Below, one piece after another: positions 19,898 through 58,986 of a stretch of 64,000 nucleotides of DNA. The notes beneath the pieces are model-generated. The model ran no database searches, was not told the DNA's origin, and was given only the letters and a program-made list of their open reading frames with translations. Position 1 is the first letter of the stretch, and the number at the start of each line of letters is the position of its first letter. The DNA is from Naegleria gruberi (Eukaryota). The translations under genes were made by a program, and so were the position numbers. The stretch lies in NCBI GenBank assembly GCA_000004985.1, contig GG738902.1; one strand, written 5' to 3'.

Positions 19898-20337
19898 TTT
19901 TTTTTGTTTTGTGTAATGAATAAACGTGTGCGGTTTTATCCACTTGCAGAATGCATGTGTGTTAGTTGCAGTGAGGAATAATCGGAACTAATAATGTTTG
20001 ACCTTAATTCTCTGTTCACTGAATGTTACATGCATTTGGAGACAAAACTGGATCTAACCAAAGACCAGGATGAGGGTGGGATTTTCTTTGTAATCCTCTC
20101 TCTTCTCAGTTAAACAATAAGAACACCCTCAGAGAAAATTCAATTTCTATCATGGGTCAACTACAAGTATAGGATACTTCTGACAAACATAATTCAGTTG
20201 ACCTTCACTGGAAAGTTCATACCTTGATCCAAAACCAGTCCTCAAAAGTTCATTATTTTTATTATTAAAAAAAATTGCCAAGTCCTTTGTTGGAGGTTTG
20301 AAATTCATCGTCGTCGTCTTTGAGAAGGATAATAATA

Positions 20338-23300: not shown

Positions 23301-23679
23301 GTTAGATGTTTTGGAAGAAACCCAATTCTTTATTGAAAACCCATATGAAAATAATCGTTTGGTAATTTCACTCACTCAGTTGGACACCAGATATGTTCAC
23401 GATTCAAAGGATGATGATTCATGTATTGCAGTTCATTTGATTAGAGTTGATCAGCCATCCCCATCTAGATTGATCAAGATCAACAAGAAGGATATCATAG
23501 TTCAAGGTGATTACAAATACGACAGAGAAATAGTCGTTGATTGTTGTCTTCCATCAGGTTCCTACGTTGCCATACCTCACGAATATTTTACTACCAATTG
23601 TAAAAATACTGAACTGGGAGCATATACCATTAGAATTTTATCAGAAAGTAAGGTAAAGGTCACTACGATCAATCCTTAA
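20338..23679 (+). CDS. Calpain-family cysteine protease with a long N-terminal TPR-repeat region.
   Basis: The catalytic Cys motif is QGSLGNCWMLSAMAIVASH. The His block is HAYAILDA and the Asn/Trp block is KNPWANGIEWKGEW. The N-terminal 600 aa contain TPR-like 34-aa units. The first ATG is at 20338; the track start is TTG. Confidence 0.8.
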   Translation: MASSSNNNCILTTSDDGDSIYFVSSRDKQHTLKQLQTSTEHFQKKEYKVAIEILEKCVQIPSDTLITVSGCDFNDGECIKGIAEQADKQIVELIGKMFITKGLCYFNSTIVAESDEKKDLYFTKALQDFAAVARHYKLYKQLYYYDNQQSLLQDIDGLYVFVTTMKSYFLEGRCLQQLRGYQVDGISSLEKAVIAFSEAIQMAEYLKSNSSGVASEKVCLSALEQLPQYYLNRALSHNDINSYRPAEADFTSYISLIGNTNDKERKSTLFMIAYHNRGISLSYMQKYVEAIEDFTKSIEHYQEIPQNSPDKKQQFDSFLETHSKRAKAIHRFIVDHVHDCRDNNDKAMMDKILKLKTLACEDFEFVSKHKPNSVYNNHFNTSQILNMVATILSPILPKEVQFELYSQSIPHLRECIKQGNNYKTSLDLAKALSKTGTGQNEEILDLYNRAVKLLDVESSKKVSGEQKANIFFERGVLYNKMERVEQAIMDFTTSIDLHQQFLEAYFNRAILYYTKSRNTILAIKDLEKVIEIDPKDTTALIELAVLLASNGQVEEGTKRLNQTLECDPNNETAHKYLKILQENESPLPSNDIFEIREDHVEEVPFTIRQVQRPTSDNFGFKLFKKKTKEVDPEEQLKQSVPPPKTRSTNSMFLDNSLPPITSSILGAGTRADFDLPPHIVNLDTDLVWLRPSQITGVTKPALFVDGSNYKDVIQGSLGNCWMLSAMAIVASHDFVMKKVVVESKTNSAIGKYTFCLFKEGRNKEITIDDLIPCDVTTNSYVFSRSADPNELWVPLLEKAYAALYGNYFSLKGGHLKDALVDLTGGISFSYDIDPKKIEEVWQYLSCLPKQNSSSSSFKLMGARSETSASDYTGIINFHAYAILDAIEFPPHLTNSQRVRLIKMKNPWANGIEWKGEWSDYCPRWSPELRKYVGNDFNSQDGIFYMSLEYFVVQWNMIEGVEIFVNGKWNEFLATGRFDSNIRSDNNWMLDVLEETQFFIENPYENNRLVISLTQLDTRYVHDSKDDDSCIAVHLIRVDQPSPSRLIKINKKDIIVQGDYKYDREIVVDCCLPSGSYVAIPHEYFTTNCKNTELGAYTIRILSESKVKVTTINP

Positions 23680-23704: not shown

Positions 23705-25279
23705 CTACATTTTGACTTTCTTTGTTGATGGTTCTGTTTCATAGTCAGTTAGAGTGTCGCAATTATCCCTCTTTTTAGAAATTTCCTCTCCATCCTTAAC
23801 CAGTAACTCCGCAAGTTTAGTTTTGTTCACTTTGCATTCCTCTAGCGTATATTCATTTATATGGGGTGAATAAAGTGATTTTTCAATAGTTAAACGACCT
23901 TGACCTGTTTGGTATGACAGACATTTGACTGGAGCGAATTTGCTCTTGATATGATTCTTAACTTGGTAGTTTTGCTGAAATGTTTTGGAAAGTAAGGTTG
24001 GTGAATTAACAAATTCCAATACCTGTTGACAATCGTAACATGTACAATCAGTTGTTGCTCCAAGATTAAAAGTGACTGGAACTGGGATTTTCTCTTTGCC
24101 ATTCGTAAGATCATCACAATAATTCAAACACATCTTGACAAGTTTCTGCATTAAAGGATCTTTGATATTTTCAGGAGTTTGTGAAATATGGAAAAGGAGT
24201 GGAATAATGATATGATGATAATGTGCTTTTCCTACAAGTGTAATTAGAGTTCTTTCATGATTTTTGGAGAACAAAATCGGTGTTTCACTATAAACAGTCT
24301 GTTTGTTGTAATGGTGTCCATTAGAAAAACCATCAACTGTTATTTTACCAATAAATTCTTCCAATTCAGTTTTTCTATTACAAGCCAAGCAAATTTCGAA
24401 TATTTTCACTAGCTCATCAACTTCATAAAAGTCGTCCTTTAGTAACAGAGTAACTAGCTTATTCAAAACAAGCCCAAGTATACTTCTCTCCTTATCATTC
24501 TTTCCAATGTAATTGTGAAATTTCATAACTAAATTCAATTTGTTTGATTTCTCAGCATGCTTCCAAAAATCTTCTGAAATTACATCAAAGAAACCAGTAC
24601 AATCACTCAATTTCAAAAAAGAAATGCACTGTAGCATATTCTCAATATCAACAGTTTTTACAGTCCAACATCTTCTCAACGCCTCAAATATGAATGTTAT
24701 GTTACTATGTTTGATTCCTGTCAAGAGCAATTTGTCAATATCCATCCTGATTTTTGAAGTAATATTCCTCATGGAACTGTAGTCCAATTCTATATTGCTT
24801 TGTATATAAACCTCCATGAATAAATCAAAATTAAGATTGACAGAACCGCAACGTGATCTATAAATCTCTTCCAATTTGTATTTGATAATTTCGTTTTTAA
24901 GGTCATACCTATCTGCAGCCGAAACGAAACGAAGAACACTATTAATATCTAATGTTTTCAAATATCCTTGAAGTGCTAGATGGATTTGTTTGTTAAAATA
25001 TTTTTCCAATTGAATCAAATCTTCAATACTGCACTTGCTACCTTTGATAGATAATAGTTTGTTAACAAGTCCAACATCTTTGAGTTTTTTAAGGTAATTA
25101 ACTTCCATTTCTTTGTAATTTGCAATAATATACTCCATGTATTTTTTAATCTTATTGAGAAGCTCTGTATTGGAATTATTCTTGTTATATTCACTCCACA
25201 ATTTAGCAAGATATTCCATTGCAACTTGTATTCCAAGACGAAGGGATAATTCTCCCATCTTTTTCTGAGAACAAATCAT
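23705..25279 (-). CDS. Hypothetical protein of about 524 aa.
   Basis: Uninterrupted ORF from MMICSQKKMGELSL to the acidic tail. No recognisable motifs. It converges on the calpain gene with only 25 bp between stop codons. Confidence 0.45.
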   Translation of the reverse strand: MICSQKKMGELSLRLGIQVAMEYLAKLWSEYNKNNSNTELLNKIKKYMEYIIANYKEMEVNYLKKLKDVGLVNKLLSIKGSKCSIEDLIQLEKYFNKQIHLALQGYLKTLDINSVLRFVSAADRYDLKNEIIKYKLEEIYRSRCGSVNLNFDLFMEVYIQSNIELDYSSMRNITSKIRMDIDKLLLTGIKHSNITFIFEALRRCWTVKTVDIENMLQCISFLKLSDCTGFFDVISEDFWKHAEKSNKLNLVMKFHNYIGKNDKERSILGLVLNKLVTLLLKDDFYEVDELVKIFEICLACNRKTELEEFIGKITVDGFSNGHHYNKQTVYSETPILFSKNHERTLITLVGKAHYHHIIIPLLFHISQTPENIKDPLMQKLVKMCLNYCDDLTNGKEKIPVPVTFNLGATTDCTCYDCQQVLEFVNSPTLLSKTFQQNYQVKNHIKSKFAPVKCLSYQTGQGRLTIEKSLYSPHINEYTLEECKVNKTKLAELLVKDGEEISKKRDNCDTLTDYETEPSTKKVKM

Positions 25280-25364
25280 CACTGCCCAAACTTCCTCATA
25301 TGTTTCCGTTGATATATGGTCGAACGTATCAACCTAAACACAAATGAAAGATTAGTATGAAATT

Positions 25365-26681
25365 TCACAAAAACATTACCTTTTTCGAAACTGACTTGGC
25401 ATTTTCCAAGGCATCTTCTGGACTAATCTTTTCCTCTGATATTTCGTATTTGCAAATGGACGGTTTATCCTTTCTTAAAGCACTGGTAATGAAATAATCT
25501 GGTGAATCTGAGCCATATCTATCTTCGTCAGATCCTTCAACTTCTTTTTGTAATTTCACCAATAATATTCCCAAGTCATGAAACTTTTCAGTGTAACGTT
25601 TGAGAGTTGAGACTAAATTCTGGTCTTTTCCCTTTAAATGACTATAAGACAACTCTTGTCTTTTGTATTTTTCAGCTAATACTCTTATCATATATGAATC
25701 ATTTTTGAATTGGTCAACTATTAACTTTACAGTATTCAAAAATGGAGAATTTTCAATAGCTGGTGGTTCAGTTTCATTATAATCCATAATATAAACCATA
25801 AATACTCGGTGTCCTCTAGTAACTTTTGGTATTTTGATTTCACAATCAGGGTGAAAGGCAATATAATAAGTTGTGAATGTGGAATTTTCTGTAAAGTTGA
25901 ATTTCTCCACATGTCCATTATATTCGACACAAATATCTGTATCTTCTGATTCAAAATCAGATGGCAATTGAATTAGCATTGCTGAAAAAACATTGTCGTC
26001 AATTGGTGATCCAGAGAAACTGCATCCTTCACTTAATACCATTATTGAATCTTCATACATGTTAAACCTTATAGATTCGTCAATTCCCAACTTGTTCCTA
26101 ATCTCAGAGTTTACAAATTGCTCCCAAGCACGACTCCAATTATTGTTTTTCACACAACACATAAAATTGTAAGGATTATTAACATTAGTTTTGGTACATG
26201 TATAGGAAAATCTCTTCAAATCATTCATATATTCATTGGATATTATTGGCAAACTGAGCATCATACTGTTTTGTTTATCAGAATAATCACCACTTGCATT
26301 GCGCACTTCAATACCTGGAAGAAAACTCATCGAATCATCCAATTTACCTCCACATGCAAAATTTGCAAATTGTAAACTTCCTTCCGAAACCAAACCACAA
26401 AATCTCTCAAGTGCTTCATGTACCTTTCCACCTCCAATCAATTCTTGTATTTGTGAATCAATTCGTGTTGCAACTTTGGTTTTATATAGAATTTTCTCTT
26501 GTTCAATTTCTTCTTCTTCGGAATCAACAATTTGATTCGAATTGGCTTCTTCTTCTTCAGAGGAGATGATCATTGTATGAGGCAAAGTATCGCCATTGAT
26601 CATCATTTCTTCATCAGCATCATCAATGATGATAATGGGACCGTTTGGTGCTTGCATTTTTTTTGTCTTTGGTTTTTCCAT
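25365..26681 (-). CDS. Hypothetical protein of 438 aa with an acidic N-terminus. It has a possible HxD...H metal-binding pair, which is speculative.
   Basis: ORF MEKPKTKKMQAPNGPIIIIDDADEE... It contains IAFHPDCEIKIPKVTRGHRVFMVY, where an HxD is followed by GH 13 residues later. This is reminiscent of 2OG-Fe oxygenases but is atypical. Confidence 0.4.
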   Translation of the reverse strand: MEKPKTKKMQAPNGPIIIIDDADEEMMINGDTLPHTMIISSEEEEANSNQIVDSEEEEIEQEKILYKTKVATRIDSQIQELIGGGKVHEALERFCGLVSEGSLQFANFACGGKLDDSMSFLPGIEVRNASGDYSDKQNSMMLSLPIISNEYMNDLKRFSYTCTKTNVNNPYNFMCCVKNNNWSRAWEQFVNSEIRNKLGIDESIRFNMYEDSIMVLSEGCSFSGSPIDDNVFSAMLIQLPSDFESEDTDICVEYNGHVEKFNFTENSTFTTYYIAFHPDCEIKIPKVTRGHRVFMVYIMDYNETEPPAIENSPFLNTVKLIVDQFKNDSYMIRVLAEKYKRQELSYSHLKGKDQNLVSTLKRYTEKFHDLGILLVKLQKEVEGSDEDRYGSDSPDYFITSALRKDKPSICKYEISEEKISPEDALENAKSVSKKVMFL

Positions 26682-26987: not shown

Positions 26988-29528
26988 TTAGCAAGATTTG
27001 TTGACTAGTTCAGCAAGAAGTTTTTTCATGTCCTCTCTATTAAAAACATCCAAAGTTACAATTTGAATTTGATTTCTCTTTTCATCATTCGAAACTTGAT
27101 TTAAAAATTGTTTGATAATGTACTTGGTATTCAATTCTAGATATTCATCAGTGACTTGAATTGATTGCTCAGGTTCTTTGAGGTCATCTTCGGTGAGTGG
27201 AATAATTCTCTCAGGAGGGTTGTTGAATTTGAGACAAGAATCAATCATTTCTTGAGTGATTCCTTCCTCAGATTGTTCATGCGTAAGAGATTCCTTAATT
27301 TGCTTTCGTTGACTTTCTAATTGTTGCTCCAATGTAGATAAATTAATGGAAACACTCACACAACGATTGTCTTGGAATCTTCTGGTCTTTCCTGAAGAGG
27401 CTTCAATAGAAACCTCAATGAAACTGCTTTGTCTTGAATGAGATTCATCCAATGATGATGAGCTTTCGTCAGTGACATTTCTTGTTGTTGCTGGCTTAAT
27501 GACTTGATCGGAAAGTTTTGGTTCTTCAAAGGTTTCAACCTTTTCCATACAAACAACTGGAGAATCCACAGAATCTTCGTCTCTCAAATGAGATGGAATT
27601 GGAGATTTCTTTTCTGGAGTGGCAGGAGGTGGAATTTGTGGGCTAACTTGAATAGTTTCCTTCTTTTCTGGCATGGTTGTTGGGTCAATTTTAGATGTTC
27701 TCTTTTGCATAATTTCCTCTGGGAATGGATCAAGACGAACGAAATTTTCTGGAGTTTCAGATAGTAAATTAGAAAGATAGGCATCTGACAAGTCGCAGTA
27801 AACTAATTTTCTCTTGAGTGATTCCTTCTTTGTAAAGACGAGAATGAATGGAACATGTTCCAATTCTGGCATGTTAACAGTTCTGTTGAAAAATTCCAAC
27901 GAATCAATTAATTGATTTTTCAATGTCAACAAATGGTTGTGTTGTAAACTTTGATGACGTGATAGGAAATTAGATGAAGCACTGTCGATGAGTGGCTTGA
28001 ATTTTGGTGATTTCAAAGTCTTTTTCTTGGCTCTTTCCTTTTCCAATAGATCAGTATGTTTCACATTGACACTACTACCAGTTGGTGATGTCAAGGTGGA
28101 AATGAGCTTGTCATTGGATGAGGCATCACTACCACTTTCATAAACTGGTTTTTCAAGAGTCAATACCTTATCTACAAGTGGAGAACCAGGAGTTCTCGAA
28201 TCAGTTATTGAAATTGTGGAGCCGTACAATCCCAAAATATCATCAACTGAATACTGATTGTAACAAGTGAGTGAAACAAAGTACAAAATGGCAACTCCCT
28301 GAGTTTTGATTGGTTTCTTACTGGAAGTAGCATTTTGTTCACTTGAATTGGCGGATGTATTGCTGTCAGTTGTGGTATTGAGTGGAGTAGATGAAGCATT
28401 TACAGATGATGAGCTAGGTGCTGTATTTTCAGATTTCTTCTTCTTCTTCTCTTCCTTTTCCTTATCCTTTCCAGAGGAGGTTGTTGAACTTGTCAATGGT
28501 TGAGATTCTTCATAGAGCTTGGAGAGCAAAATCTTCTTCCACTTTTTTCTATCTGATCTAACACCTGCACTGTCAATCATGTGAAGTGAACGAATGATTG
28601 GTTTTGGTTTTTGAGGGAGTGCATTCTTTTCAGAGTCCTTACTCTTTTTAGAGGAGCTTGTTGATGTGGTTGCATTCTCAGTGGTAGATGTGCTCTTTCT
28701 CTCTGTAATGATTTTAATTTCACTCTCATAGAAACCTCGAGTCATATTCGAAGCTAACAAGTATTCAGTTTCAGATTTCAATTCTGTATCAGAAAATCCC
28801 TTTCTAGCTCTTCTCAATCTTTCTGCTATTTGATTACAATGAGTAATGACATAATTGAAATGTTCGAAATGTTGCCATTGTGGTTGTTTTGGAACTGTAT
28901 TCACATTTCCATTTTTATCCAACACATTTCCTGAAATAATCGATCCCACTTGAGTATTTCCAAACAAGTACAATAATTCTGGTGAAATTTTGTTATAATA
29001 CAAGATGGTGTAAATTTTGTGTAAAATTGTCTCAGTTGCCCACAACATTGAAATTTGTTGCATCATTCCTGCATCACTCCATAACAATTCTGGCTTAACA
29101 ATTGCTTGTTGCAGTAAACACCGAGAAGCATCTCCCTGTTCTCCACCATTCTCATTCTCACCTGCCCCTGCCTCATTCGAGCACTGTTCCACGATTGAAA
29201 TTTTTACAATTTTCAACAATTTTTCATCAATTAAATTTTTTGATGATGGAAATCGATAATCAATTTCGTTGAAAATTTTCTTCTTGACACAAATAATGAA
29301 CAATAACCATGAGAACATGCTGCTGAGTAATTCTTCGTGGAATTTTAGTGAATTTTTGGACATGCTGCCACCCAATAGGAGATTGGACATTTTGCAGAAG
29401 GATGTCTTTCCCGAATTGCTTACACCCATAAGGAGAAGGTGATGGAGTTGTTGTTGTTGTTGCTGTTGTTGGAGATTATAGTCGAAGGGTTGATCTTCGT
29501 CTCCGTGCCGACTCATTTGTTGTCCCAT
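26988..29528 (-). CDS. Divergent heterotrimeric G-protein alpha-subunit-like protein of 846 aa, with a myristoylation-type N-terminus and large low-complexity insertions.
   Basis: MGQQMS has Gly2 followed by Ser6. The P-loop LLLMGVSNSGKTS matches LLLLGAGESGKST. HMIDSAGVRSDRKKWKKI matches FDVGGQRSERKKWIHCF. GVAILYFVSLTCYNQ matches VTAIIFCVALSDYD. PFILVFTKKES matches IILFLNKKDL. IQIVTLDVFNRE matches the TCAT region. Confidence 0.7.
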   Translation of the reverse strand: MGQQMSRHGDEDQPFDYNLQQQQQQQQLHHLLLMGVSNSGKTSFCKMSNLLLGGSMSKNSLKFHEELLSSMFSWLLFIICVKKKIFNEIDYRFPSSKNLIDEKLLKIVKISIVEQCSNEAGAGENENGGEQGDASRCLLQQAIVKPELLWSDAGMMQQISMLWATETILHKIYTILYYNKISPELLYLFGNTQVGSIISGNVLDKNGNVNTVPKQPQWQHFEHFNYVITHCNQIAERLRRARKGFSDTELKSETEYLLASNMTRGFYESEIKIITERKSTSTTENATTSTSSSKKSKDSEKNALPQKPKPIIRSLHMIDSAGVRSDRKKWKKILLSKLYEESQPLTSSTTSSGKDKEKEEKKKKKSENTAPSSSSVNASSTPLNTTTDSNTSANSSEQNATSSKKPIKTQGVAILYFVSLTCYNQYSVDDILGLYGSTISITDSRTPGSPLVDKVLTLEKPVYESGSDASSNDKLISTLTSPTGSSVNVKHTDLLEKERAKKKTLKSPKFKPLIDSASSNFLSRHQSLQHNHLLTLKNQLIDSLEFFNRTVNMPELEHVPFILVFTKKESLKRKLVYCDLSDAYLSNLLSETPENFVRLDPFPEEIMQKRTSKIDPTTMPEKKETIQVSPQIPPPATPEKKSPIPSHLRDEDSVDSPVVCMEKVETFEEPKLSDQVIKPATTRNVTDESSSSLDESHSRQSSFIEVSIEASSGKTRRFQDNRCVSVSINLSTLEQQLESQRKQIKESLTHEQSEEGITQEMIDSCLKFNNPPERIIPLTEDDLKEPEQSIQVTDEYLELNTKYIIKQFLNQVSNDEKRNQIQIVTLDVFNREDMKKLLAELVNKSC

Positions 29529-37895: not shown

Positions 37896-40800
37896 ATGCC
37901 ACTACACCAAACTTTCATCTACACTGGGAAGCTACAACCAGACGAAACTAAACATACAACATTTCCAACAACAAGAACAATATCGCGGAATAGTCGAATT
38001 TCTTTCTCTTCATCAACTATAACCACAAATTTAATTATTTCAATTCTACTGCTAGCATTTATCACCTCTCTCATACAATCTCTATATTATCAGATAGTGT
38101 ATTCATCCAACAATGACAACAAACTTTATAGTCACACATTCTTTGTGAATGCTGCCACTACATGCTATGGTGTTGACAGCACGGATCCTAGTGTTTGCTC
38201 GGGTAATGGAAATTGTACCAGTAAGAATAATTGTGAGTGCAATGATGGATTTAGTGGAAACAAATGTCAAACAGAGACGGTGAAATGTTATGGTGTAGTA
38301 GATACTGATCCTACAGTATGTTCAGGTCATGGAAATTGCTCTAGTAAGAATAATTGTCTGTGTGATTCAGGGTACAGTGGTAACAAGTGTCAAACCTTTG
38401 ATGGTACTAGTTCGATATCGTGTTATGGAATCGATTCGACAGATAGTTCAGTTTGTAATTACAATGGTAATTGCACAGCAACGAATAATTGCGTTTGTAA
38501 TCAAGGATATAGTGGAAATCAGTGCCAAACATTGGATAGCTCTTTTAAATGTTATGGAGTTGACTCTACTGACGTTTCTGTTTGTAATGGAAATGGAAAT
38601 TGTACATCAACTAATAATTGTGTCTGCAAATCTGGTTACACTGGGAATCAATGTCAAAATGAAGATAGTTCATTTAAATGCTACGGGGTTGACTCGACAG
38701 ATATCTCTGTTTGTAGCGGAAATGGAAATTGTACAAGCTCAAACAATTGCGAATGCAAATCTGGTTATACTGGTAATCAATGTCAATCAATTGATAGCTC
38801 TTTCAAGTGTTATGGTGTTGATTCGATAGATATCTCTGTTTGCAATGGAAATGGTAATTGCACTAGTTCAAATAATTGTGTTTGTAAATCTGGTTACAGT
38901 GGAAATCAATGTCAAACCTATGATGGCGGTAATAGTGGTTCATTTAAATGCTATGGAGTTGATTCTAGTGATATCTCTGTTTGTAGTGGAAACGGTAACT
39001 GTACTTCTGCTAATAATTGTGAATGTAAGGCAGGTTATAGCGGCAATCAATGCCAAACCTTCTCTACCTCTTTTAAGTGTTATGGTGTTGATTCGACAGA
39101 TAGTTCAGTTTGTAATGGAAATGGCAATTGCACCTCCTCTAATAATTGCGAATGTAAATCTGGATACACAGGAAACCAATGTCAATCAATTGATAGCTCG
39201 TTCAAGTGTTATGGTGTTGATTCGATGGATGTCTCTGTTTGCAATGGAAATGGTAATTGCACTAGTTCAAACAACTGTGTTTGTAAATCTGGTTACAGTG
39301 GGAATCAATGTCAAAACAATGATGGCAGTAGCACCATTAAATGTTATGGTATTGATTCGACTGACCCATCAGTTTGCTCAGGTCATGGTATCTGTTCCTC
39401 AACCAACGACTGCCAATGTGAAAATGGTTACAGTGGAAATAAGTGTCAAACCTTTGCAAACGAAACATCTACTTTCAAATGTTATGGTGTAGATTCTTCG
39501 GATCCTACTGTTTGCTCTGGTAATGGAAACTGTACATCCACCAACAATTGCCAATGCCAATCAGGATTCAGTGGAAATAAGTGTCAAACTACAGTTAATT
39601 ATTGCTTTGGTTATGATGAAAATGATAACAATGTTTGTGGTGGTCCAGATCGAGGAAAATGTACATCTAACGATGTTTGTGAATGTAAGGGAAGCTACGT
39701 TGGTTACGATTGTGGTGCTTTTGTTTCAGACAAATCACTCATCAAAATAACCTCAAAATATTCAAAGATTCTAAGCACCAATACTGACATTAATTTCATA
39801 ACAATTAGTATTCCAAAGCTCACTAACAGCTACAAGGGAATTGAGAATAGACTCAAGAGTACTTTGGTGATTTTCAGCAGTAATGTTACTATTGATTATT
39901 CCACTACTGGAATGATTGAACAGTTTCAATTGTATAAGAACATGACACTTGGCGTCTACTCTCTCAATTTAACCATTGTTGATACTACTTATAACATTCA
40001 AGTTGCTGCTACTGTTGAGAGCTCAATATTTTCTATACTGACTCTTGAACAAACTACTCAAAGTGTGGATACCTTGACAGCAAAAGAAATTGCACAAGTT
40101 ACAAAGCAATTGAACCAAATTACAAACCAACAACAATTTATTTCTACTGTGGTTTCTACTTTGAAAGAGAATGTTAATAATTACACAATTGATGATGGTT
40201 TAGATTTGACTTCGTCACTATTAGATATTTCCAATGTCAAGTTGGATACTAAATCTAAACTGGGAATATCTGAAACCCTAAAATCATATGCTCAAAATAT
40301 GATCGAAAAGTTTGACAATTTCACAACAGAACAAGTCAAACCAGTTGCAATTAACATCGTTTCTGTTGCCTCAAATATTTTAAATCAATCTATATTTACT
40401 GAACCATCATCTAAATTTGTGGTTATCGGTAATTCTATTCAATCCGTTGAAAAGACACTTTCCCTTGTTACGATTGTTAATCCAACAGAAAATTTATCAA
40501 TTGAAACTTCGATGATTAAGGTTCTTCTCATTTCAAAATCAGAATACAAGAATTTACATACTATAGATAAGGATTATACTCTTAATCTTCCAGAATTGGG
40601 GTTTGAATATTCGTTTGGTTTGGTAAAATATGAAAATTACTTGACAGAAGATTTGCAAAACACAAGTTCAATTTCTGACATTTTGCAAGTGAGACCAATG
40701 TTGAATGGTGTTTTTAGCCCTCTCAGACATTTATCCACTCCATTCAATTTGACTTTCTCTATCAAACATTTCGGTGCGCCACCAAGTAATGAAACAGTTG

Positions 40801-42590
40801 CAACTGTGGTTTGCAAATATTGGAACGAAACAACTAATGAATGGTTGAGTGATGGATGTAGCACCACAATCCTTTCGGCTGATCAAGTCTTGTGCTCATG
40901 CTATCACACAACAAAGTTTTCCTCCTTTGTGGATTATTCTAAAGTGAATTTCAGTACCAGAACTATTCAGACATCACTAGCCGTTGCCAACATCATTTTC
41001 AGTTCCTTATTTATTGCTGCAATTCTAGTTATCCTTGTGTTGTTGGTAATTTTCAGAAAATCCCAACCTGTAAAATCAAGATTTATTACTCCCTACTTTG
41101 CATTAACTGCCCTATTGATTGATAATTTGGTTTCTGGTATTATTGCCAAAGGACTTTTACTTGGAAATTACTCATTCAATGTAGTTATCATGACAAGTGT
41201 CTGTGCAGTAATTTCAAGTGCACTATTGGCAAGTGCAGTCTGGTGCTATTTTGTCATGTCCATTCGTTTCATCATCCACAGATACTTTTACGAATACATG
41301 ATGAGAGTGGTTGAGAACAGACAACAAAAGAATGCCGTTTTGGTTAAGATTTTGAACATTTTCAAACAGGATAAGCTTCTCATCTTGTCTAGTTTGATGA
41401 TTGGTTTTGGTTTTGTCTTGTACTTTACCATTTTTATCATTTTGAAGGGAGTGGATGCTTTCTCTGATTCTCAATTCACTTACTCAACAACCATTTCATT
41501 GTTTATTATTTTACTTTTCATGACGGCGATGGTAATTGCTATTTACATTTTAGACTTTTATTTGGACTTTACAAACAAACAATTAAGAGATGAATTAGTT
41601 GACATATCTGATGAAATAATGTTATTAGAAAGTGGAGATTCAAGCTTGAACAATCTCAATTCTAGAAAATCCCTTAAAATTACAAAACCTTTCGTTGATT
41701 TGTTGGAACAATCCCATATTAAGAAGTTTTTCAATTTATTCTACTCAAATGACAAGTTAATGTTCAGACCTGAGGCCATTTTCTTCATGTTAGGTATTTC
41801 ATTCTTTACCATTTCTTACTGCTTGGGATTTGCCAGTGTCCATGACCGTTACGTATCAAATCCAACTTCTACACAAATTCAAACAGTCGACATTCTCGAT
41901 GCAGTTGCATTCCTTTTTGAAGTCTTGATGACCGTTTGTTTGATTACTAGCTTTGGAGGTTTCTCTGTTGGTTGGGCCATTTTCACTGAAACCAGAAAGA
42001 GAAGTTGCTTCAAGGAATCCAGACAAGCTTCTGTCAATGCTGAGAGAATCAAATCTCAAAGACTTGAAAGCTACGAGGATCTTACCAACAGGTTTGATGT
42101 TTACAAGCTCATGAAGAACAAGTACTTGTTAAGACTCTTCCAACAATATGCCAAGTTGGAAATGTCACTAGAAAATTATATTGTTTGGATGCGAATTGAA
42201 CATGCCAGATCTAAATTTGCCAAATTGTGGGTTGATATGGATGGAGAAGCAGCATCTATCGAGGAATGGAATTCACTCTTGGAGGAATTACTTGGATGGC
42301 TAAAGGATCACTTGGATCCAGATGCAGAACTCGCTCTCAATGTCAGCCACCACTCTGTTAAACAATTCATTGCTGCTGTGCATATGCTAGAAAGCAAAAT
42401 TGACACCATTTCAACTAAGAACAGAGATTCCCTATTCAATTTGAAAGAAATGGTTAGACAAGCCATTGATTCATTAATCATCGATGTTCTCTACAATTTA
42501 ACAGACACCTATTCAAGATTTATCATCACGGATGAATACAAAGCTCTCAAAGAAGTAGAATCTGTTACCGAAATGAATACTTTCAAATAA
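37896..42590 (+). CDS. Giant adhesion-GPCR-like receptor of 1564 aa: about 14 EGF-like repeats, a GPS-like motif, 7 TM helices and a C-terminal RGS-like domain.
   Basis: The repeat is CYGVDSTD.SVC.GNGNCTS.NNC.C..GY.GN.CQ. The GPS-like motif is VVCKYWNETTNEWLSDGCSTTILSADQVLCSCYHTTKFSSF, matching C.C.H.T.F. Seven hydrophobic helices follow. The C-terminal FDVYKLMKNKYLLRLFQQYAKLEMSLENYIVWMRIEH resembles the RGS N-terminal helices. Confidence 0.75.
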   Translation: MPLHQTFIYTGKLQPDETKHTTFPTTRTISRNSRISFSSSTITTNLIISILLLAFITSLIQSLYYQIVYSSNNDNKLYSHTFFVNAATTCYGVDSTDPSVCSGNGNCTSKNNCECNDGFSGNKCQTETVKCYGVVDTDPTVCSGHGNCSSKNNCLCDSGYSGNKCQTFDGTSSISCYGIDSTDSSVCNYNGNCTATNNCVCNQGYSGNQCQTLDSSFKCYGVDSTDVSVCNGNGNCTSTNNCVCKSGYTGNQCQNEDSSFKCYGVDSTDISVCSGNGNCTSSNNCECKSGYTGNQCQSIDSSFKCYGVDSIDISVCNGNGNCTSSNNCVCKSGYSGNQCQTYDGGNSGSFKCYGVDSSDISVCSGNGNCTSANNCECKAGYSGNQCQTFSTSFKCYGVDSTDSSVCNGNGNCTSSNNCECKSGYTGNQCQSIDSSFKCYGVDSMDVSVCNGNGNCTSSNNCVCKSGYSGNQCQNNDGSSTIKCYGIDSTDPSVCSGHGICSSTNDCQCENGYSGNKCQTFANETSTFKCYGVDSSDPTVCSGNGNCTSTNNCQCQSGFSGNKCQTTVNYCFGYDENDNNVCGGPDRGKCTSNDVCECKGSYVGYDCGAFVSDKSLIKITSKYSKILSTNTDINFITISIPKLTNSYKGIENRLKSTLVIFSSNVTIDYSTTGMIEQFQLYKNMTLGVYSLNLTIVDTTYNIQVAATVESSIFSILTLEQTTQSVDTLTAKEIAQVTKQLNQITNQQQFISTVVSTLKENVNNYTIDDGLDLTSSLLDISNVKLDTKSKLGISETLKSYAQNMIEKFDNFTTEQVKPVAINIVSVASNILNQSIFTEPSSKFVVIGNSIQSVEKTLSLVTIVNPTENLSIETSMIKVLLISKSEYKNLHTIDKDYTLNLPELGFEYSFGLVKYENYLTEDLQNTSSISDILQVRPMLNGVFSPLRHLSTPFNLTFSIKHFGAPPSNETVATVVCKYWNETTNEWLSDGCSTTILSADQVLCSCYHTTKFSSFVDYSKVNFSTRTIQTSLAVANIIFSSLFIAAILVILVLLVIFRKSQPVKSRFITPYFALTALLIDNLVSGIIAKGLLLGNYSFNVVIMTSVCAVISSALLASAVWCYFVMSIRFIIHRYFYEYMMRVVENRQQKNAVLVKILNIFKQDKLLILSSLMIGFGFVLYFTIFIILKGVDAFSDSQFTYSTTISLFIILLFMTAMVIAIYILDFYLDFTNKQLRDELVDISDEIMLLESGDSSLNNLNSRKSLKITKPFVDLLEQSHIKKFFNLFYSNDKLMFRPEAIFFMLGISFFTISYCLGFASVHDRYVSNPTSTQIQTVDILDAVAFLFEVLMTVCLITSFGGFSVGWAIFTETRKRSCFKESRQASVNAERIKSQRLESYEDLTNRFDVYKLMKNKYLLRLFQQYAKLEMSLENYIVWMRIEHARSKFAKLWVDMDGEAASIEEWNSLLEELLGWLKDHLDPDAELALNVSHHSVKQFIAAVHMLESKIDTISTKNRDSLFNLKEMVRQAIDSLIIDVLYNLTDTYSRFIITDEYKALKEVESVTEMNTFK
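38160..39720 (+). repeat. Tandem array of about 111-114-nt units encoding the EGF-like repeats of the receptor.
   Basis: Near-identical nucleotide units, each beginning aagtgttatggtgttgattcgacagat... and ending ...ggaaatcaatgtcaa. This explains the long ORFs in the other forward frames. Confidence 0.8.
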
Positions 42591-42672: not shown

Positions 42673-43910
42673 TTATCTTTTAATGGGCGGGCGTGTCTGT
42701 AAATCACTGATTGAATAATCCTGGAATATTTTCAACATGCGCTCTCTATTCATCAATTTTGTAGTGTGTGTAATTATTAAATCTCCTCTTTTACAAACGA
42801 ATTCGAATAGATCATCCCCAATATAATCCTCATGAATATAGTGAATGTAAAGAAGAATCTCAGGATACTTTGAAAAAAAGGGTGCAACTTCATAATATTC
42901 ATAACATGTACTCACTGAGACATCATACCGTAAAGTTAATTCCAAATATTTCAATCTTTCGGTTCTAGGAATATAGCGGATACACTTTGGTACAATTGAA
43001 AGAATTTGAGGTAGGAATGTAGCTTGTTCCTTGACAAAGCGAAATGTTGAGGGATCTCTTTTCACACAATTCATTACAATTTCCTGATAATTTTCAATGG
43101 CAGGATCAACATATTGGAGGGTGAGAGGATCCAACTCAAGTGCTGGTATTACAATTTCTGGATTCTTTTTGAAAGCTGCAGTCATAAATTGAAGATTGTG
43201 TGGCAGTTTTCTAATGGCCAATAGAGCCATTTCTAAATCAGATTTGAATTCAAAATAAATGTATCTGAATAAATGTGGATTAATTTCTAGAGCCATCTTG
43301 GTTAATTCTCTATCTTTTCTCAATTCCAATTTGATAAATGAAAAGGAAGCTGGATTTAATCTCATATTAATCAATGATTCTTTTACAATTTGCATATCCT
43401 GAAGAGATTCATCAAATTTTTCAAATGAAACTCCATAATTGAGCATTTCCATCATTAATTCTCTATCATTTCTATAAGAATGATTCGTTGGAAAATGATG
43501 TGCTTCCCTCTTTTTTTATCCAATTTCAGAATTTTCAAAAGATATTCAATCGATGAATCGTGACTCAAGGCATAAATTACAAATTCTCTCATTTTAAACA
43601 ATGATTCATCTAAAAGTTTTGCAATTTTTTGTGGATTTCCTTTTCCACTTTGAATTATTTGCATCATGAGTTCTTTATCTTTTCTAAAAGATTTTGGAAT
43701 TAGCTCAAGACATTCTGGATCAATTTCAAATGCCATTAACATTGATTCTCTTGTTTCTTTCCAATTATCTGGGAAATATGAAAATTTTGGATTGATTTGT
43801 TGTCCACTTTTGGCAGCCATCTTGCCTAATTCAAAATCCTTTTCCAAATTATTGACATTTGGCACATATCCATATTTGCTAGCCACCAATTCAAGAATTT
43901 CTCTATCCAT
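42673..43910 (-). pseudogene. DUF4116-like repeat protein gene. It is read as two ORFs (43455..43910 and 42673..43455) separated by a +1 frameshift at an A7 homopolymer.
   Basis: Both ORFs carry the same helical repeat (…MAFEIDPECLELIPKSFRKDKELMMQII… / …MALEINPHLFRYIYFEFKSDLEMALLAI… / NPEIVIPALELDPLTLQYVDPAIENYQEIVMNCVKRDPSTFRFV). Adding one A to the run at 43511..43517 fuses them into one continuous reading frame of about 410 aa. Confidence 0.55.
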
Positions 43911-44314: not shown

Positions 44315-44785
44315 GTACGCTTCTATCTTTTTCAATGGAACAAGTTGAAATTACCTTCAATTATTTAAAATAGAATCTTTTTGTAGTATTATTTGAATAA
44401 CATTCTTAGCTAAGAACCATTAGATGACAAAAAACCAAAAACCGCCCAGCAAAACCGTTACACCATTATAAATGGTTTTTCAAAAAAAAACACCATCAAG
44501 AATTTATTCTCACCTGCAATGAAGTAACAACGACACACAGGTGCTAGTTTCAAATCCACATCAAATTACCTGTCTAGATGCCCTTTGCCAATTCTCTTTT
44601 ACCAAGAGCAAAGTGAAAGTCCCCAAAAGATGTTTCCACCATAATACAAAAACAAGTAACACATATTTTCATATATGAATAATATCTATTGCAAGATATT
44701 ATAATCACCATCAAACTATTTGACAAATAAAATTAGCCGGCTGGTTTGCCATCATAATATCCAAGTTGGATTTCAAACAACAAAA

Positions 44786-47700
44786 ATGTCCAAATTGCTT
44801 CTCCTACTATTACTTTCTCTTTTATTTGCAACAACAACAACACGAATAATCAGTGCCTACATCCTGCTACCACAACAATCAGCATCATCTTCACTTTATA
44901 ATAACCAAGATGATAATTCATCATCAACAACTATAATAACATCATCCTCATCATCATCAAATGTATTACTTTCTGCTACAGCAGCAGTGGTGGTGGAGAG
45001 GAATAAAACATTCTATATCAATGAAGCGAATGGCACACAAAGTGGTGATTGTTCCGAGCCTTCAAAAGCCTGCTCCTCCATCCTCTATTTAACTGGTTTG
45101 ATTTCACGATCGACCGATTATTTAACAAACAAGTTTTTAATCTATCTAATAGGAGATTGTATTAAATATGAACCAATAACATTCAGTACCATGACCTTGA
45201 CGAGTACTTTTATATTTCTCTCATACAATGATTCAAATAATACAAATAATAGTAGTGGCAGTACAGTTAATAGAGTGACATTGGCAAATAAGAGATGGTT
45301 AGCTCAATTTTCAAGTATGGGATTTGAAAATTTAATTGTGGACAAGATGGAAATATTTCCAGGAGATGGATTTTCATTTGTGAATTGTCTGGTTAGAGGG
45401 ATGAGTTTGAAGAGAGGATTTACTTGGATGATTGTGAAGAATACAGTGATTGAGGATTCAATTTTTGGAGATGATAGTGTCACGAGTTATATGAGGAATA
45501 AGGACGATAGACCAGTGATTGAAATTACACAGAGTAGAATTGTTCGTTCAAAGATGAATTTAGAATCAATTACTAATGTTATGAACTGTAATTTTACCGA
45601 ATCTAATATGACGATTAGCAATTCAGTATCTTCAACATTGCAGAATATTGCTGTTAACAATTCTAGAATTTTATTAAGAGTTGTCTTTTATATTAATGTG
45701 AATTATTTTGATTGCTCCAATAGTAGTTCATCATTTGCAATTGATGGAGCCAATGAGGTTAAAATTGTGAGGTTCAATTTTGAGAATTGTAATAATTATG
45801 GAGAAAGTACTCTCTTCTCTACTGTTAGGACTTTAAATATTGATCACATGAATTATATTAGAAATAAGGGTGCACTTACGTTTTTAGGAGTTTACCAAAC
45901 TAATATGGGATCATCTAATTTTATTGAGAATAGAAATGGTGCCATTCAAGTGGAAAATCATGGCGACTCACCAACATATTTTGTCGTGCAAGGTTCCAAG
46001 TTTTTGAGAAATAGCAGATTATCAAATGGTGGAGCTATTTATATGGATTCAGCTTTATCAAATTTCCATACCTATTCTAGTGTATTTGAAGATAATATGG
46101 CATTGAATGGAGGTGCTGTATATGTATTAGCATCCATTAGAAATACCTATACCAATACTGTTTTTAACAGAAATAAGGTTACAGACTGTGCTAAATGCGG
46201 TAATGGTGGAGCTCTTTATTCCAACACAAACTCTCTAGAGTGGAGATCCTCCAATTTTACAAATAATGTAGCCATTAAGGGAGGAGCTGTTTTTATTGAT
46301 AGAGTACCATCTATTACCTTTGAAACTCAGGATATTGTGTTTCAAAATAATGAAGCTCAATTTGGATCAGACTTTTTCTTTGAAAAGTATGAAGTTGACA
46401 AGTTCCCTGTTGATAAATATGCAAACTCTACTGCCAGCTCAATTATGAAGAGTTTCAAAGTACTCATGAATAATATTGAGATAGACTCAGGAAAGAACTT
46501 TGATGTCTATCCAGGTGAAACGATACAATTACAATATTCCTTTGAAGACATATTTGGAAATAGAATTGAATCTTCTCATAATCAACCTGTCATATCCTCT
46601 GATGCAAATATTACTCTATACACAGTTTTTACCTCAAATACGGACTTTAAGTTGCTCTTTGATTTGAATAATAAGGGAGAGATATCTACAACTGTTGAAT
46701 TGGTCATTGCCTATTCAGAATTTACTGTAATTAGTGAATTGCATCTCACCATTGCTCCATGTCCACAGTATCATCGTTTACAACAGGTCAATTTTAATGG
46801 ATACAAATGTGTCAAGCAAGATGTATTGCTTATTATCATTTCCTCTGTACTTTCATTTATTTCCCTGCTTATAATAATACCATTCATTTCATTCATTCTT
46901 TACAGGTTTGCACTCAAAAAGTTGTTTATATTCTACAAGAGAGAACGAGAGGAGAGAAGAATTGAAAAGCAATTGAAAGATTACCTCTTTAGAAATATTA
47001 ATGCCAATGATGAGAAACAAGGTCTCCTCAAATCTTTGACACATTCTAATATGATAATTCCAATCAGTGACATTCAAATTGTTTCCAAAATAGGAGAAGG
47101 ATCGAATGGTGTAGTATATTTGGGGCGATGGAAACAAACTGACGTTGCCCTCAAAAGTATCAAACATGATTCTACCGATATTGATATTGAAAATCAATTA
47201 GAAGAATTTGAACATGAAGCTTCCTTATTAGCAAGCTTACGTCATCCCAATGTCATTTCATTTTATGGTATTAGTTTCGGTCTCAATGTACAATACATGG
47301 TAGTTGAATATTCAGTTAATGGAAGTTTGGACAAGGCAATTCATCAATCCAAGATTAAGAAGAAGGTTCTCAGTTTTAGAGATAAGATTAATATTGTTCT
47401 TGGAATTTCAAAAGGTTTAAATTACTTGCATTCATTGAGACCACAAATGATTGTTCACAGGTATGTATTTGAATAGTCTTATTGAGATTAATACTGAAAT
47501 TATCAAATAATTTTAGAGATTTGAAACCTGGAAATATTCTATTGGATAGTAATTTTGAGCCAAAGGTAACAGATTTTGGAATGAGTCGATTTATTGGAAC
47601 TGAAAATTCATCCATGACCATGAATGTTGGTACATTACGATATTGTGCACCTGAGATATTCAACAATGACAAACACGATGCCAATCACATGGTCGATGTC

Positions 47701-48096
47701 TACTCATTCTCAATGATTATGTATGAATTATTATTTGAGGATGCTCCCTTCTCTGAAAATACTAAAAAGATGAAGAATAGAAGTTCAGGAATCTCTACAT
47801 CTGACTCCTCATCCGTAACAAGTGGAAGTGGTTCAAATAATATTAATGAAATGTACAGTATTCCAGTTCGAGTAGTGAGAGGAGAACGCCCAAGCATTCC
47901 CTTCTCGAATGAAAATGAATTGGAAATGTGGGCTGATGAGTTTATTACTGATAATGCCTCTCTAAACTACAAAGTACAAGCTCTTGAACAATATATTGAA
48001 TTGATGAAACAGTGTTGGGCTCAAGCTCCAAATCAAAGACCATCCTTTGGTCAAATTTCGGAAACCCTTTTGAATATTAGCATTTCTTTCAGATAA
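44786..48096 (+). CDS. Receptor-like protein kinase with a signal peptide, a parallel beta-helix (PbH1-type) ectodomain, one TM and a TKL/Ser-Thr-type kinase domain. Two exons: 44786..47460 and 47517..48096.
   Basis: Signal peptide MSKLLLLLLLSLLFATTTT. Repeated NGGAIY, NGGAVYV, GNGGALYS and KGGAVFI motifs. The TM is VLLIIISSVLSFISLLIIIPFISFIL. Kinase motifs are GEGSNGVVYLGRW...VALKSIK, HPNVISFYG, and HR|DLKPGNILL with DFGMSRF and YCAPE. The intron is GTATGT...TTTTAG and its phase is consistent. Confidence 0.8.
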
Positions 48097-58568: not shown

Positions 58569-58986
58569 TGATATAGTCATTCACATGTGGACATGAAATT
58601 TAATAAAAATTCAAGAAAACAATCTTTTTCTCAATGTTGGAATACATGAAAATTAAGAACTTGTAAGTCCCAATTAATGTAAATTCCTTGTCTGATTTGG
58701 CGAGATATGTTACAATGGAAAAATTCATTAAAATTCATCTGCGTCTCACTTTACTGGTCAGAACTTCTCCCGCCAAATCGTAAACGAGTAACCAATCATA
58801 ACTGTTACGCTTGAAAAATTTACTTTAGAAAAAAAAAACTCAATTCTCTCCCCTCTACACTCTTTCAGTTGTTGTTGCAACAAATTTTTATCGTAGTGAG
58901 GGTTTTTATATATTTTGTATAGTTCATCATCCAAATCCAAATCATCATCAACCACCTTACTTACTATATTATTTATTAAATCGAGA

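What the first reader, a model, noticed from the sequence alone, without database searches (positions are those of the whole stretch)
37896..42590. EGF-array / GPS-like / 7TM / RGS receptor in one polypeptide
The gene combines a long array of near-identical EGF-like repeats, a membrane-proximal motif matching the adhesion-GPCR GPS consensus (C-x-C-x-H-T-x-F: LCSCYHTTKFSSF), seven TM helices and an RGS-like C-terminus. The repeats also carry conserved N-glycosylation sites (NCT). 7TM-RGS fusions are known from plants and some protists. One that also carries a GPS/GAIN-like element and an EGF stalk would be a self-regulating adhesion-type receptor, with the GAP attached to the receptor itself. 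The 1.5-kb nucleotide-level tandem array is also a likely site of repeat-number polymorphism.
Basis: partly seen in the sequence, partly recalled or inferred. Interest (0 to 1): 0.65.

Follow-up and report, generated by a model that had tools for sequence, protein, structure and literature searches.

The report
Naegleria EGF–GAIN–7TM–RGS receptor gene
This Naegleria gruberi gene encodes one surface protein that joins an adhesion-type outer region (12 EGF modules and a GAIN/GPS domain) to a seven-helix membrane domain and an intracellular G-protein "off switch" (RGS), and it is a real but already described type, because the same architecture was published for N. fowleri in 2022.

Summary
Window 37896..42590 (+) is one uninterrupted 1564-aa ORF, identical to an NCBI "predicted protein [Naegleria gruberi]".

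It encodes, in order:
- an N-terminal signal/anchor segment
- 12 EGF-like modules
- a beta-sandwich spacer
- a complete GAIN domain whose GPS reads C-x-C-x-H-T-T-x-F
- a GPCR-fold 7TM domain
- a C-terminal RGS box

Each part is supported by HMM, profile or predicted-fold evidence. The gene belongs to a large family found only in Heterolobosea (Naegleria, Willaertia). At least 76 of the 150 best 50%-identity representatives have GPS+7TM+RGS.

Bosch et al. 2022 (JBC) already described 28 "7TM RGS" proteins in N. fowleri. Several carry GPS motifs and EGF repeats, and their RGS domains are GAPs for Naegleria G-alpha subunits. So this is a new member of a known kind.

New details:
- The GAIN domain is complete.
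- The cleavage triplet is HTT in 72 and HAT in 3 of 75 family members, never HLT.
- The 7TM is not detectably secretin/adhesion-class.
- The EGF repeats are not near-identical in DNA (mean 67%).

Autoproteolysis, tethered agonism and GAP regulation remain inferred.

The parts
37896..42590 (+). Whole single-exon ORF, 1564 aa plus stop codon
   Evidence: Found by the ORF listing. It is 100% identical over its full length to an NCBI N. gruberi predicted protein.
38022..38090 (+). N-terminal hydrophobic segment (aa 43-65), a signal peptide or signal anchor
   Evidence: Kyte-Doolittle peak of 2.28. Paralogues begin with canonical signal peptides (sequences printed).
38163..39713 (+). Array of 12 EGF-like modules (aa 90-606). 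Units 4-9 are the most alike, and 10 units carry an NC[TS] sequon.
   Evidence: Pfam EGF_2 E 5.6e-53 and EGF_Teneurin E 2.7e-33.
39744..40040 (+). Beta-sandwich spacer domain (aa 617-715) between the EGF array and GAIN
   Evidence: Strands at residues 18-116 of AlphaFold model m3fc9df5cf8ef, pLDDT about 72-90. Only weak Ig/FN3-like fold matches.
40044..40478 (+). GAIN subdomain A, a helical bundle (aa 717-861)
   Evidence: Model helices at residues 118-262. The profile aligns across it to ADGRL3, ADGRG6 and ADGRE5 GAIN domains. Foldseek finds BAI3 GAIN at E 9e-11.
40494..40943 (+). GAIN subdomain B, a beta-sandwich that includes the GPS motif (aa 867-1016; Pfam GPS aa 972-1009)
   Evidence: Pfam GPS scores 34-36 bits against a cut-off of 22.5. 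Model strands at residues 268-417. Invariant C..W..GC..CxCxHTTxF.
40905..40913 (+). H1004-T1005-T1006, the predicted autoproteolysis triplet (scissile bond T1005|T1006)
   Evidence: H and the +1 Thr are invariant in alignments A1 and A2. The triplet is HTT in 72 and HAT in 3 of 75 family representatives. Cleavage itself is inferred.
40911..40949 (+). Stachel-like last GAIN strand plus linker (aa 1006-1018, TKFSSFVDYSKVN)
   Evidence: T, F(+3) and F(+6) are invariant in the family. It aligns to the TNFAVLM Stachel of true aGPCRs in hhalign, though not significantly.
40950..42008 (+). Seven-transmembrane domain (aa 1019-1371): TM1 1019-1052, TM2 1065-1089, TM3 1096-1141, TM4 1159-1185, TM5 1191-1226, a long intracellular loop 3, TM6 1290-1318, TM7 1325-1371
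42072..42587 (+). C-terminal RGS box (aa 1393-1564), with motifs E-M-S-L-E-N, L-N-V (Asn1482) and D-T-Y-S-R-F
   Evidence: Pfam RGS scores 22.1 bits, E 2e-4, against a cut-off of 23.9. The family profile matches RGS2 at 7e-14 and RGS4 at 1e-10. Foldseek finds RGS domains with TMt 0.55-0.73.

Best explanation
The gene encodes a Naegleria gruberi member of the heterolobosean '7TM RGS' receptor family, in its adhesion-type form.

Shown here: a signal sequence puts a 12-module EGF stalk, a beta-sandwich spacer and a full GAIN domain outside the cell. A GPCR-fold seven-helix bundle spans the membrane. An RGS box sits in the cytoplasm.

Inferred working model: the RGS box is a GTPase-activating protein that keeps nearby Naegleria G-alpha subunits in the GDP state. 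The GAIN domain cleaves itself at H1004-T1005|T1006 and holds the two fragments together. Binding or pulling on the EGF stalk changes the GAIN/Stachel-7TM interaction, and this changes how well the tethered RGS reaches G-alpha. It might do so by a conformational change or by removing the receptor from the membrane, as in plant AtRGS1. Contact with a surface, prey or another cell would then be read out as a local change in G-alpha-GTP.
For: Architecture:
- The ORF is continuous.
- EGF_2 scores E 5.6e-53 and GPS scores above the Pfam cut-off.
- A profile of aa 600-1025 matches whole GAIN domains of ADGRL3 (E 1.3e-8, about 280 columns), ADGRF1, ADGRG6, ADGRE5 and latrophilin-1.
- The AlphaFold model (pLDDT 81.7, pTM 0.80) shows a helical bundle followed by a beta-sandwich. 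Its six best Foldseek hits are all aGPCR GAIN domains, with BAI3 at E 9e-11.
- RGS: the family profile matches RGS2 at 7e-14. The motifs E-x-S-x-E-N, E-V-N and D-x-x-x-R-F are conserved, including the Asn that aligns with the E-I-N Asn of RGS2.

Family:
- 86 of the 150 best representatives carry 7TM+RGS, and 76 of those also carry GPS.
- All named members come from N. gruberi, N. fowleri, N. lovaniensis or Willaertia magna.

Function by homology: RGS domains of N. fowleri 7TM RGS2, 3 and 4 are GAPs for Nf G-alpha subunits, and 7TM RGS2 and 4 bind Nf G-alpha3 (and 7TM RGS2 also Nf G-alpha2) selectively in the transition state (PMC9283941).

Cleavage competence: the His and the +1 Thr, four Cys and a Trp of the GPS are invariant in the 18- and 20-sequence alignments A1/A2, and the His and +1 Thr are kept in all 75 motif-bearing family members.
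Against: - No experiment bears on this particular protein.
- Its own RGS score is just under Pfam's threshold.
- The P1 residue is Thr rather than the Leu of proven cleaving GAIN domains, so cleavage is not assured.
- The conserved Stachel residues are also needed for GAIN folding, so their conservation does not prove agonist function.
- The 7TM shows no sequence relationship to aGPCR 7TM domains, so tethered-agonist docking cannot be carried over by homology.
- Whether the 7TM also acts as an exchange factor is unknown.
- The N-terminal segment may be an uncleaved anchor.
Confidence: 0.8

Rival explanations
1. It is a true adhesion GPCR (class B2) that activates G proteins as an exchange factor. 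The RGS box is a built-in terminator or scaffold added to the C-tail.
For: A GAIN/GPS domain sits directly before TM1, as in aGPCRs. The best Foldseek hit of the GAIN-B+7TM+RGS model is CD97. Single-sequence and profile PDB searches hit ADGRG2, ADGRF1 and ADGRL3. Bosch et al. found Naegleria G-alpha subunits with slow exchange that would need a GEF.
Confidence: 0.12
2. The GAIN domain is an uncleaved structural spacer. The protein works like plant AtRGS1: a constitutive membrane GAP whose activity is removed by ligand-induced phosphorylation and endocytosis, with no tethered agonist.
For: P1 is Thr, not Leu, throughout the family. Several animal aGPCR GAIN domains are uncleaved, for example the uncleaved BAI2 structure 8oek listed. 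AtRGS1 is the established precedent for the 7TM+RGS architecture.
Against: The catalytic His and the nucleophile Thr are kept in all 75 motif-bearing family members across at least four species, whereas the neighbouring position before the His varies freely. That pattern is what selection for the cleavage chemistry would give, although a structural role cannot be excluded.
Confidence: 0.3
3. It is a gene-model or assembly artefact: two neighbouring genes (a secreted EGF/GAIN protein and a 7TM-RGS protein) are read as one.
For: No cDNA evidence was available here. The look-up of encoding contigs had no record for the protein.
Against: The frame stays open for 4692 nt with no stop in a 34-36% GC genome. 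The GPS-to-TM1 spacing (about 13-18 residues) is the same as in relatives. The same domain order is found in 76 representatives from several species and assemblies.
Confidence: 0.02

Closest known systems
Naegleria fowleri '7TM RGS' proteins (Nf 7TM RGS1-4 and 24 others; Bosch et al. 2022, J Biol Chem, PMC9283941)
   Same: Same architecture: an ectodomain with EGF-like repeats and/or lectin domains, a GPS motif, seven TM helices and a C-terminal RGS box. There is direct sequence homology. The cluster representative P0005 (E 4.5e-137, 45% identity over the GPS-7TM-RGS half) is grouped at 90% identity with N. fowleri XP_044563483.
   Different: This is a different species and paralogue. The closest N. 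fowleri relative has no EGF units, whereas this protein has 12. The published work gave only domain cartoons and assays on isolated RGS domains. It did not show a full GAIN domain, the invariant HTT triplet, or the class of the 7TM.
Metazoan adhesion GPCRs (latrophilin/ADGRL, CD97/ADGRE5, BAI/ADGRB, GPR126/ADGRG6)
   Same: EGF-type adhesive stalk. A complete GAIN domain (subdomains A and B) with 4 Cys, Trp, His and Thr in the GPS, placed directly before TM1. A Stachel-like T-x-F-x-x-hydrophobic strand.
   Different: The cleavage triplet is H-T|T rather than H-L|T/S. The 7TM is not 7tm_2 by HMM, profile-profile or fold ranking. It carries an RGS (GAP) domain, which no metazoan aGPCR has, so the expected sign of signalling is opposite.
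Plant AtRGS1 and other protist/fungal 7TM-RGS proteins (Trichomonas, chytrids, filastereans; de Mendoza 2014, PMC3971589)
   Same: A seven-TM domain fused to a cytoplasmic C-terminal RGS box, working with G-alpha subunits that can self-activate.
   Different: From my own knowledge, not tested here: AtRGS1 has only a short N-terminus, with no EGF array or GAIN/GPS. Homology between the two 7TM domains was not tested here.
Polycystin-1 / sea-urchin REJ family
   Same: A GAIN/GPS domain attached to a membrane domain that is not a class B 7TM. One N. fowleri family member (XP_044561243) even carries a Pfam REJ domain upstream of its GPS.
   Different: From my own knowledge, not tested here: polycystin-1 has 11 TM helices and a PLAT domain, and it has no RGS.
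GPR158/GPR179 with RGS7-Gbeta5

Membership tests
Heterolobosean 7TM RGS family (Bosch et al. 2022) | Seven TM helices followed by a C-terminal RGS domain in one polypeptide | tested here: met
   Hydropathy scan and AlphaFold helices. RGS by family profile, conserved motifs and fold.
Heterolobosean 7TM RGS family (Bosch et al. 2022) | Sequence homology across 7TM+RGS to Naegleria fowleri members | tested here: met
   In the exhaustive phmmer search, 92 representatives score below 1e-10. Named hits are from N. fowleri, N. lovaniensis, N. gruberi and Willaertia magna.
Heterolobosean 7TM RGS family (Bosch et al. 2022) | GAP activity of the RGS domain on Naegleria G-alpha | not testable with these tools
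   Shown only for Nf 7TM RGS2, 3 and 4. Here only the conserved contact motifs can be seen.
Adhesion GPCR (class B2) | GAIN domain with a GPS motif immediately N-terminal to TM1 | tested here: met
   Pfam GPS scores 34-36 bits. The profile matches whole GAIN domains. The top six Foldseek hits of the model are GAIN domains.
Adhesion GPCR (class B2) | Secretin-like 7TM domain (Pfam 7tm_2) | tested here: not met
Adhesion GPCR (class B2) | Autoproteolysis at H-L|T/S and tethered-agonist activation | not testable with these tools
   The His and the +1 Thr are present and invariant, but P1 is Thr. Cleavage and agonism need experiments.
RGS domain (Pfam PF00615) | Score above the Pfam gathering threshold for this sequence alone | tested here: not met
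   17.0, 18.6, 19.0 and 22.1 bits against a cut-off of 23.9.
RGS domain (Pfam PF00615) | Homology of the family to solved RGS boxes over the whole domain, with the G-alpha contact motifs | tested here: met
   Profile A1 matches RGS2 at 7e-14, RGS10 at 1.7e-13 and RGS4 at 1e-10 over about 125-130 residues. The motifs EFSxEN, EVN and DxxxRF align. All 18 members hit Pfam RGS at E<0.01. Foldseek TMt reaches 0.73.
EGF-like domain | Six-cysteine module matching EGF HMMs | tested here: met
   EGF_2 scores E 5.6e-53 in 12 stretches, and EGF_Teneurin scores E 2.7e-33. The cysteine pattern is shown.
Plant-type 7TM-RGS (AtRGS1) | Homology of the 7TM domain to the AtRGS1 7TM | not tested

The most novel reading that the evidence does not exclude
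The heterolobosean GAIN domain is an active, self-cleaving H-T|T variant. Its Stachel acts on a non-class-B 7TM to switch a fused RGS GAP. This would be an 'inverse' adhesion receptor that turns contact or force into a change in G-alpha-GTP through a GAP rather than through an exchange factor. It would show that GAIN/tethered-agonist control is a portable module, older and more widespread than adhesion GPCRs, and present in Discoba.
Probability: 0.3. Interest if true: 0.7.

Novelty: new member of a known kind. Interest (0 to 1): 0.35.

Why it matters
The gene is a clean, intron-free example of a receptor that joins an animal-style adhesion/GAIN ectodomain to a G-protein GAP. It comes from a non-pathogenic relative of the brain-eating amoeba N. 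fowleri.

The family is large, with dozens of paralogues per genome. It probably carries much of the surface sensing of these amoebae, and the N. fowleri members have been raised as possible drug-target pathways.

The details added here make two mechanistic questions directly testable in N. gruberi: does GAIN cleave with Thr at P1, and can a tethered agonist regulate a GAP? Those details are the complete GAIN domain, the strictly conserved H-T-T triplet, the conserved Stachel-like strand and a 7TM that is not class B.

The architecture itself has been in the literature since 2022, so this is not a discovery of a new kind of system.

Tried and rejected
1. The search for homologous proteins with the 944-aa C-terminal part found only the protein itself. 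With alignment A1 it found nothing. The word index was evidently swamped by low-complexity candidates, so family membership rests on the exhaustive phmmer search instead.
2. The look-up of encoding contigs had no record for the protein. No independent gene calls or second isolate could be obtained, and repeat-number polymorphism could not be tested.
3. The whole-protein Pfam scan missed the GPS entirely and gave RGS only 17 bits. Rescanning without the EGF array recovered the GPS. This probably explains the bare 'predicted protein' annotation.
4. The Pfam hits Bacteriocin_IId (aa 1329-1369), DUF5071, hAT-like RNase-H and CelTOS were rejected as sub-threshold matches on a TM helix or helical low-complexity sequence.
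6. Recent repeat homogenisation was rejected. Repeat pairs with 89-94% identical protein use different codons at up to half of the identical residues. The copies are therefore old and kept by purifying selection, apart from one pair at 95% DNA identity.
7. The NC[TS] sequon position is not conserved in the EGF units of relatives, which instead often carry N-x-S/T in the first loop. The specific NCT site is therefore a feature of this gene's own repeat expansion.

Full report
**What is in the sequence**

Window 37896..42590 (+) is a single uninterrupted ORF of 1564 codons in DNA of about 33-36% G+C. Its product is 100% identical over its full length to an NCBI entry named only "predicted protein [Naegleria gruberi]". 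The window is therefore N. gruberi nuclear DNA, and the public gene model is the same intron-free ORF.

**EGF array**

- The protein has 12 six-cysteine EGF-like units, starting at aa 90, 131, 176, 219, 262, 305, 352, 395, 438, 483, 529 and 570.
- Pfam EGF_2 matches 12 stretches (E 5.6e-53), and the teneurin-type EGF models also match.
- Nine units carry NCT and one NCS.
- "Near-identical" is too strong. Units 1-11 share 58-94% protein identity and 60-95% DNA identity. Over all 12 units the means are 68% (protein) and 67% (DNA). Unit 12 is only about 28% identical to the rest in protein.
- Only the pair at aa 305/438 reaches 95% in DNA, and the longest exact shared run is 40 nt.
- TRF sees a 129-nt period (72% matches) and a 399-nt higher-order period (82%).
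- Pairs with 89-94% identical protein use different codons at up to half of the identical residues. Most copies are therefore old and held by purifying selection, not recently homogenised.
- Copy number does differ among the nearest relatives: 15, 12, 7, 4 and 0 units. Polymorphism within N. gruberi could not be tested, because only one sequence exists in the databases.

**GPS and GAIN**

- The whole-protein Pfam scan missed the GPS. Once the EGF array is left out, PF01825 scores 34-36 bits against a cut-off of 22.5, at aa 972-1009.
- The motif is complete: C-x2-W-x6-W-x4-C-x11-C-x-C-x-H-T-T-x-F.
- An iterative search within the 150 best relatives showed that the roughly 400 aa before TM1 form a conserved domain in about 97 of them.
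- A 20-sequence profile of aa 600-1025 (A2) hits only adhesion-GPCR ectodomains in the PDB at significant E-values. ADGRL3 scores 1.3e-8 over profile positions 126-407. ADGRF1, ADGRG6, ADGRE5 and latrophilin-1 give similarly long alignments.
- The AlphaFold model of this segment (pLDDT 81.7, pTM 0.80) has three parts: a small beta-sandwich (aa 617-715), a bundle of helices (aa 717-861) and a beta-sandwich ending in the GPS strands (aa 867-1016).
- Its six best Foldseek hits are all GAIN domains: BAI3 at 9e-11, then BAI2, Gpr126 and CD97.

**7TM domain**

- Hydropathy gives seven segments between aa 1024 and 1363.
- The model of aa 900-1564 (pLDDT 75.6; TM helices 83-96) has seven long helices and a roughly 65-residue third intracellular loop.
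- The ranking is flat across classes, and no adhesion GPCR is in the top 60.
- No family member hits any Pfam 7TM model, and PDB sequence matches to aGPCRs end after TM1.
- As a direct test, I took five GPS-bearing hits that Pfam confirms as 7tm_2 receptors (E 1e-23 to 7e-64) and compared their Stachel+7TM profile with the family's. The result was probability 1.8% and P 0.028, covering the Stachel and TM1 only.
- The membrane domain is a GPCR fold but is not detectably secretin/adhesion class.

**RGS box**

- Alone, the sequence scores 17-22.1 bits against Pfam's cut-off of 23.9.
- The 18-sequence family alignment A1 keeps the RGS hallmarks: E-F-S-x-E-N (here E-M-S-L-E-N), E-V-N (here L-N-V, Asn1482) and D-T-F/Y-S-R-F (here D-T-Y-S-R-F).
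- The A1 profile matches RGS2 (7e-14), RGS10, RGS5, RGS16, RGS8 and RGS4 (1e-10) over the whole box.
- All 18 members hit Pfam RGS and GPS at E<0.01.
- The model's C-terminal helices superpose on RGS domains with TMt 0.55-0.73.

**Family and distribution**

- An exhaustive phmmer search of 1.84 billion representatives with aa 900-1564 found 237 proteins at E<1e-3, and 92 at E<1e-10.
- With block HMMs, 86 of the best 150 have 7TM+RGS, and 76 of those also have GPS.
- Every named member is from N. gruberi, N. fowleri, N. lovaniensis or Willaertia magna.
- The GPS triplet in this family is HTT (72) or HAT (3), never HLT. The HLT/HLS hits are the true 7tm_2 aGPCRs.
- Acrasis kona, another heterolobosean, has HTT GAIN proteins attached to a different multi-pass tail that has no Pfam match.
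- Ectodomains vary widely among relatives. The closest N. fowleri protein has no EGF units, and another has teneurin-type EGF repeats plus a REJ domain.

**Prior knowledge**

- Bosch et al. 2022 (PMC9283941) reported 28 "7TM RGS" proteins in N. fowleri. They noted that a number carry GPS motifs, EGF-like repeats and lectin domains "reminiscent of the adhesion GPCRs".
- They showed GAP activity and transition-state-selective binding of the RGS domains of Nf 7TM RGS2, 3 and 4 on several Nf G-alpha subunits. Two of these subunits (Nf G-alpha5 and G-alpha7) are self-activating.
- de Mendoza et al. 2014 (PMC3971589) recorded 7TM-RGS architectures in many bikonts and some opisthokonts.

**Mechanism**

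- Shown: the domain order, topology-compatible hydrophobic segments, homology of each module, and conservation of the GPS catalytic residues and the RGS contact motifs.
- By homology to tested proteins: the RGS is a G-alpha GAP.
- Inferred: self-cleavage at T1005|T1006, non-covalent association of the two fragments, and ligand- or force-dependent change of the GAIN/Stachel-7TM interaction that alters GAP access to G-alpha or receptor residence at the membrane.
- The main rival is an uncleaved GAIN spacer with AtRGS1-like regulation by endocytosis. A true-aGPCR reading is disfavoured by the 7TM tests. A gene-fusion artefact is excluded for practical purposes by the open frame and the recurrence of the architecture.

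**Verdict**

The gene is a new member of a known kind. The added value is modest: a full GAIN domain, the invariant H-T-T triplet, a non-class-B 7TM and an old, diverged repeat array. Interest is 0.35.

Noticed in passing
window 26988..29528 (-): An 846-aa ORF about 8.4 kb upstream scores as G-alpha (Pfam PF00503, 53.7 bits against a cut-off of 48.8) but is very divergent. Its P-loop reads LLLMGVSNSGKTS. Its switch II reads DSAGVRSDRKKW, so the catalytic Gln is replaced by Val. It may be an extra-large, GTPase-impaired G-alpha-like protein. Its closeness to the 7TM-RGS gene may be coincidence.
   Followed up: partly
window 58915..62412 (+): A 1165-aa ORF combines a complete pyruvate phosphate dikinase (PPDK_N, PEP-utilizers, PEP-utilizers_C) with a C-terminal adenylate kinase domain (PF00406, aa 988-1141, E 1.7e-48). 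This fusion could couple the AMP of the PPDK reaction to adenylate kinase.
   Followed up: no
window 20320..23679 (+): A 1119-aa ORF has N-terminal TPR repeats followed by a calpain protease domain (Peptidase_C2, E 5.5e-69) and a weak calpain domain III match.
   Followed up: no
window 42673..43455 (-) and 43455..43910 (-): Two abutting ORFs immediately downstream of the receptor gene both consist of DUF4116 repeats. They may be one gene split by a frameshift or a short intron.
   Followed up: no
window 44720..47476 (+) and 47482..48096 (+): A 918-aa ORF ends in the first half of a protein kinase domain (profile positions 1-127 of 258). The next ORF probably continues it across a short intron.
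   Followed up: no
relatives P0121 and P0140 (Acrasis kona KAL0491815, KAL0483497) and P0126, P0150, P0108: These proteins have GAIN domains with the same H-T-T triplet, but the GAIN is joined to a different multi-pass membrane tail of about 550-650 aa. Two tails scanned with Pfam (P0121 and P0126) gave no hit, and none has an RGS by the family HMM. This looks like a second, undescribed GAIN-anchored membrane family in Heterolobosea.
   Followed up: partly
relative P0157 (N. fowleri XP_044561243): A member of the 7TM-RGS family's cluster carries a Pfam REJ domain (aa 858-1031, E 9.4e-7) after its teneurin-type EGF repeats. This echoes the REJ+GAIN arrangement of polycystin-1.
   Followed up: no
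window 2892..4865, 12990..14669, 14675..17569, 17515..19143, 23705..25282, 25365..26681: Six ORFs of 438-964 aa have no Pfam match at E<0.001. They are lineage-specific proteins or unannotated families.
   Followed up: no
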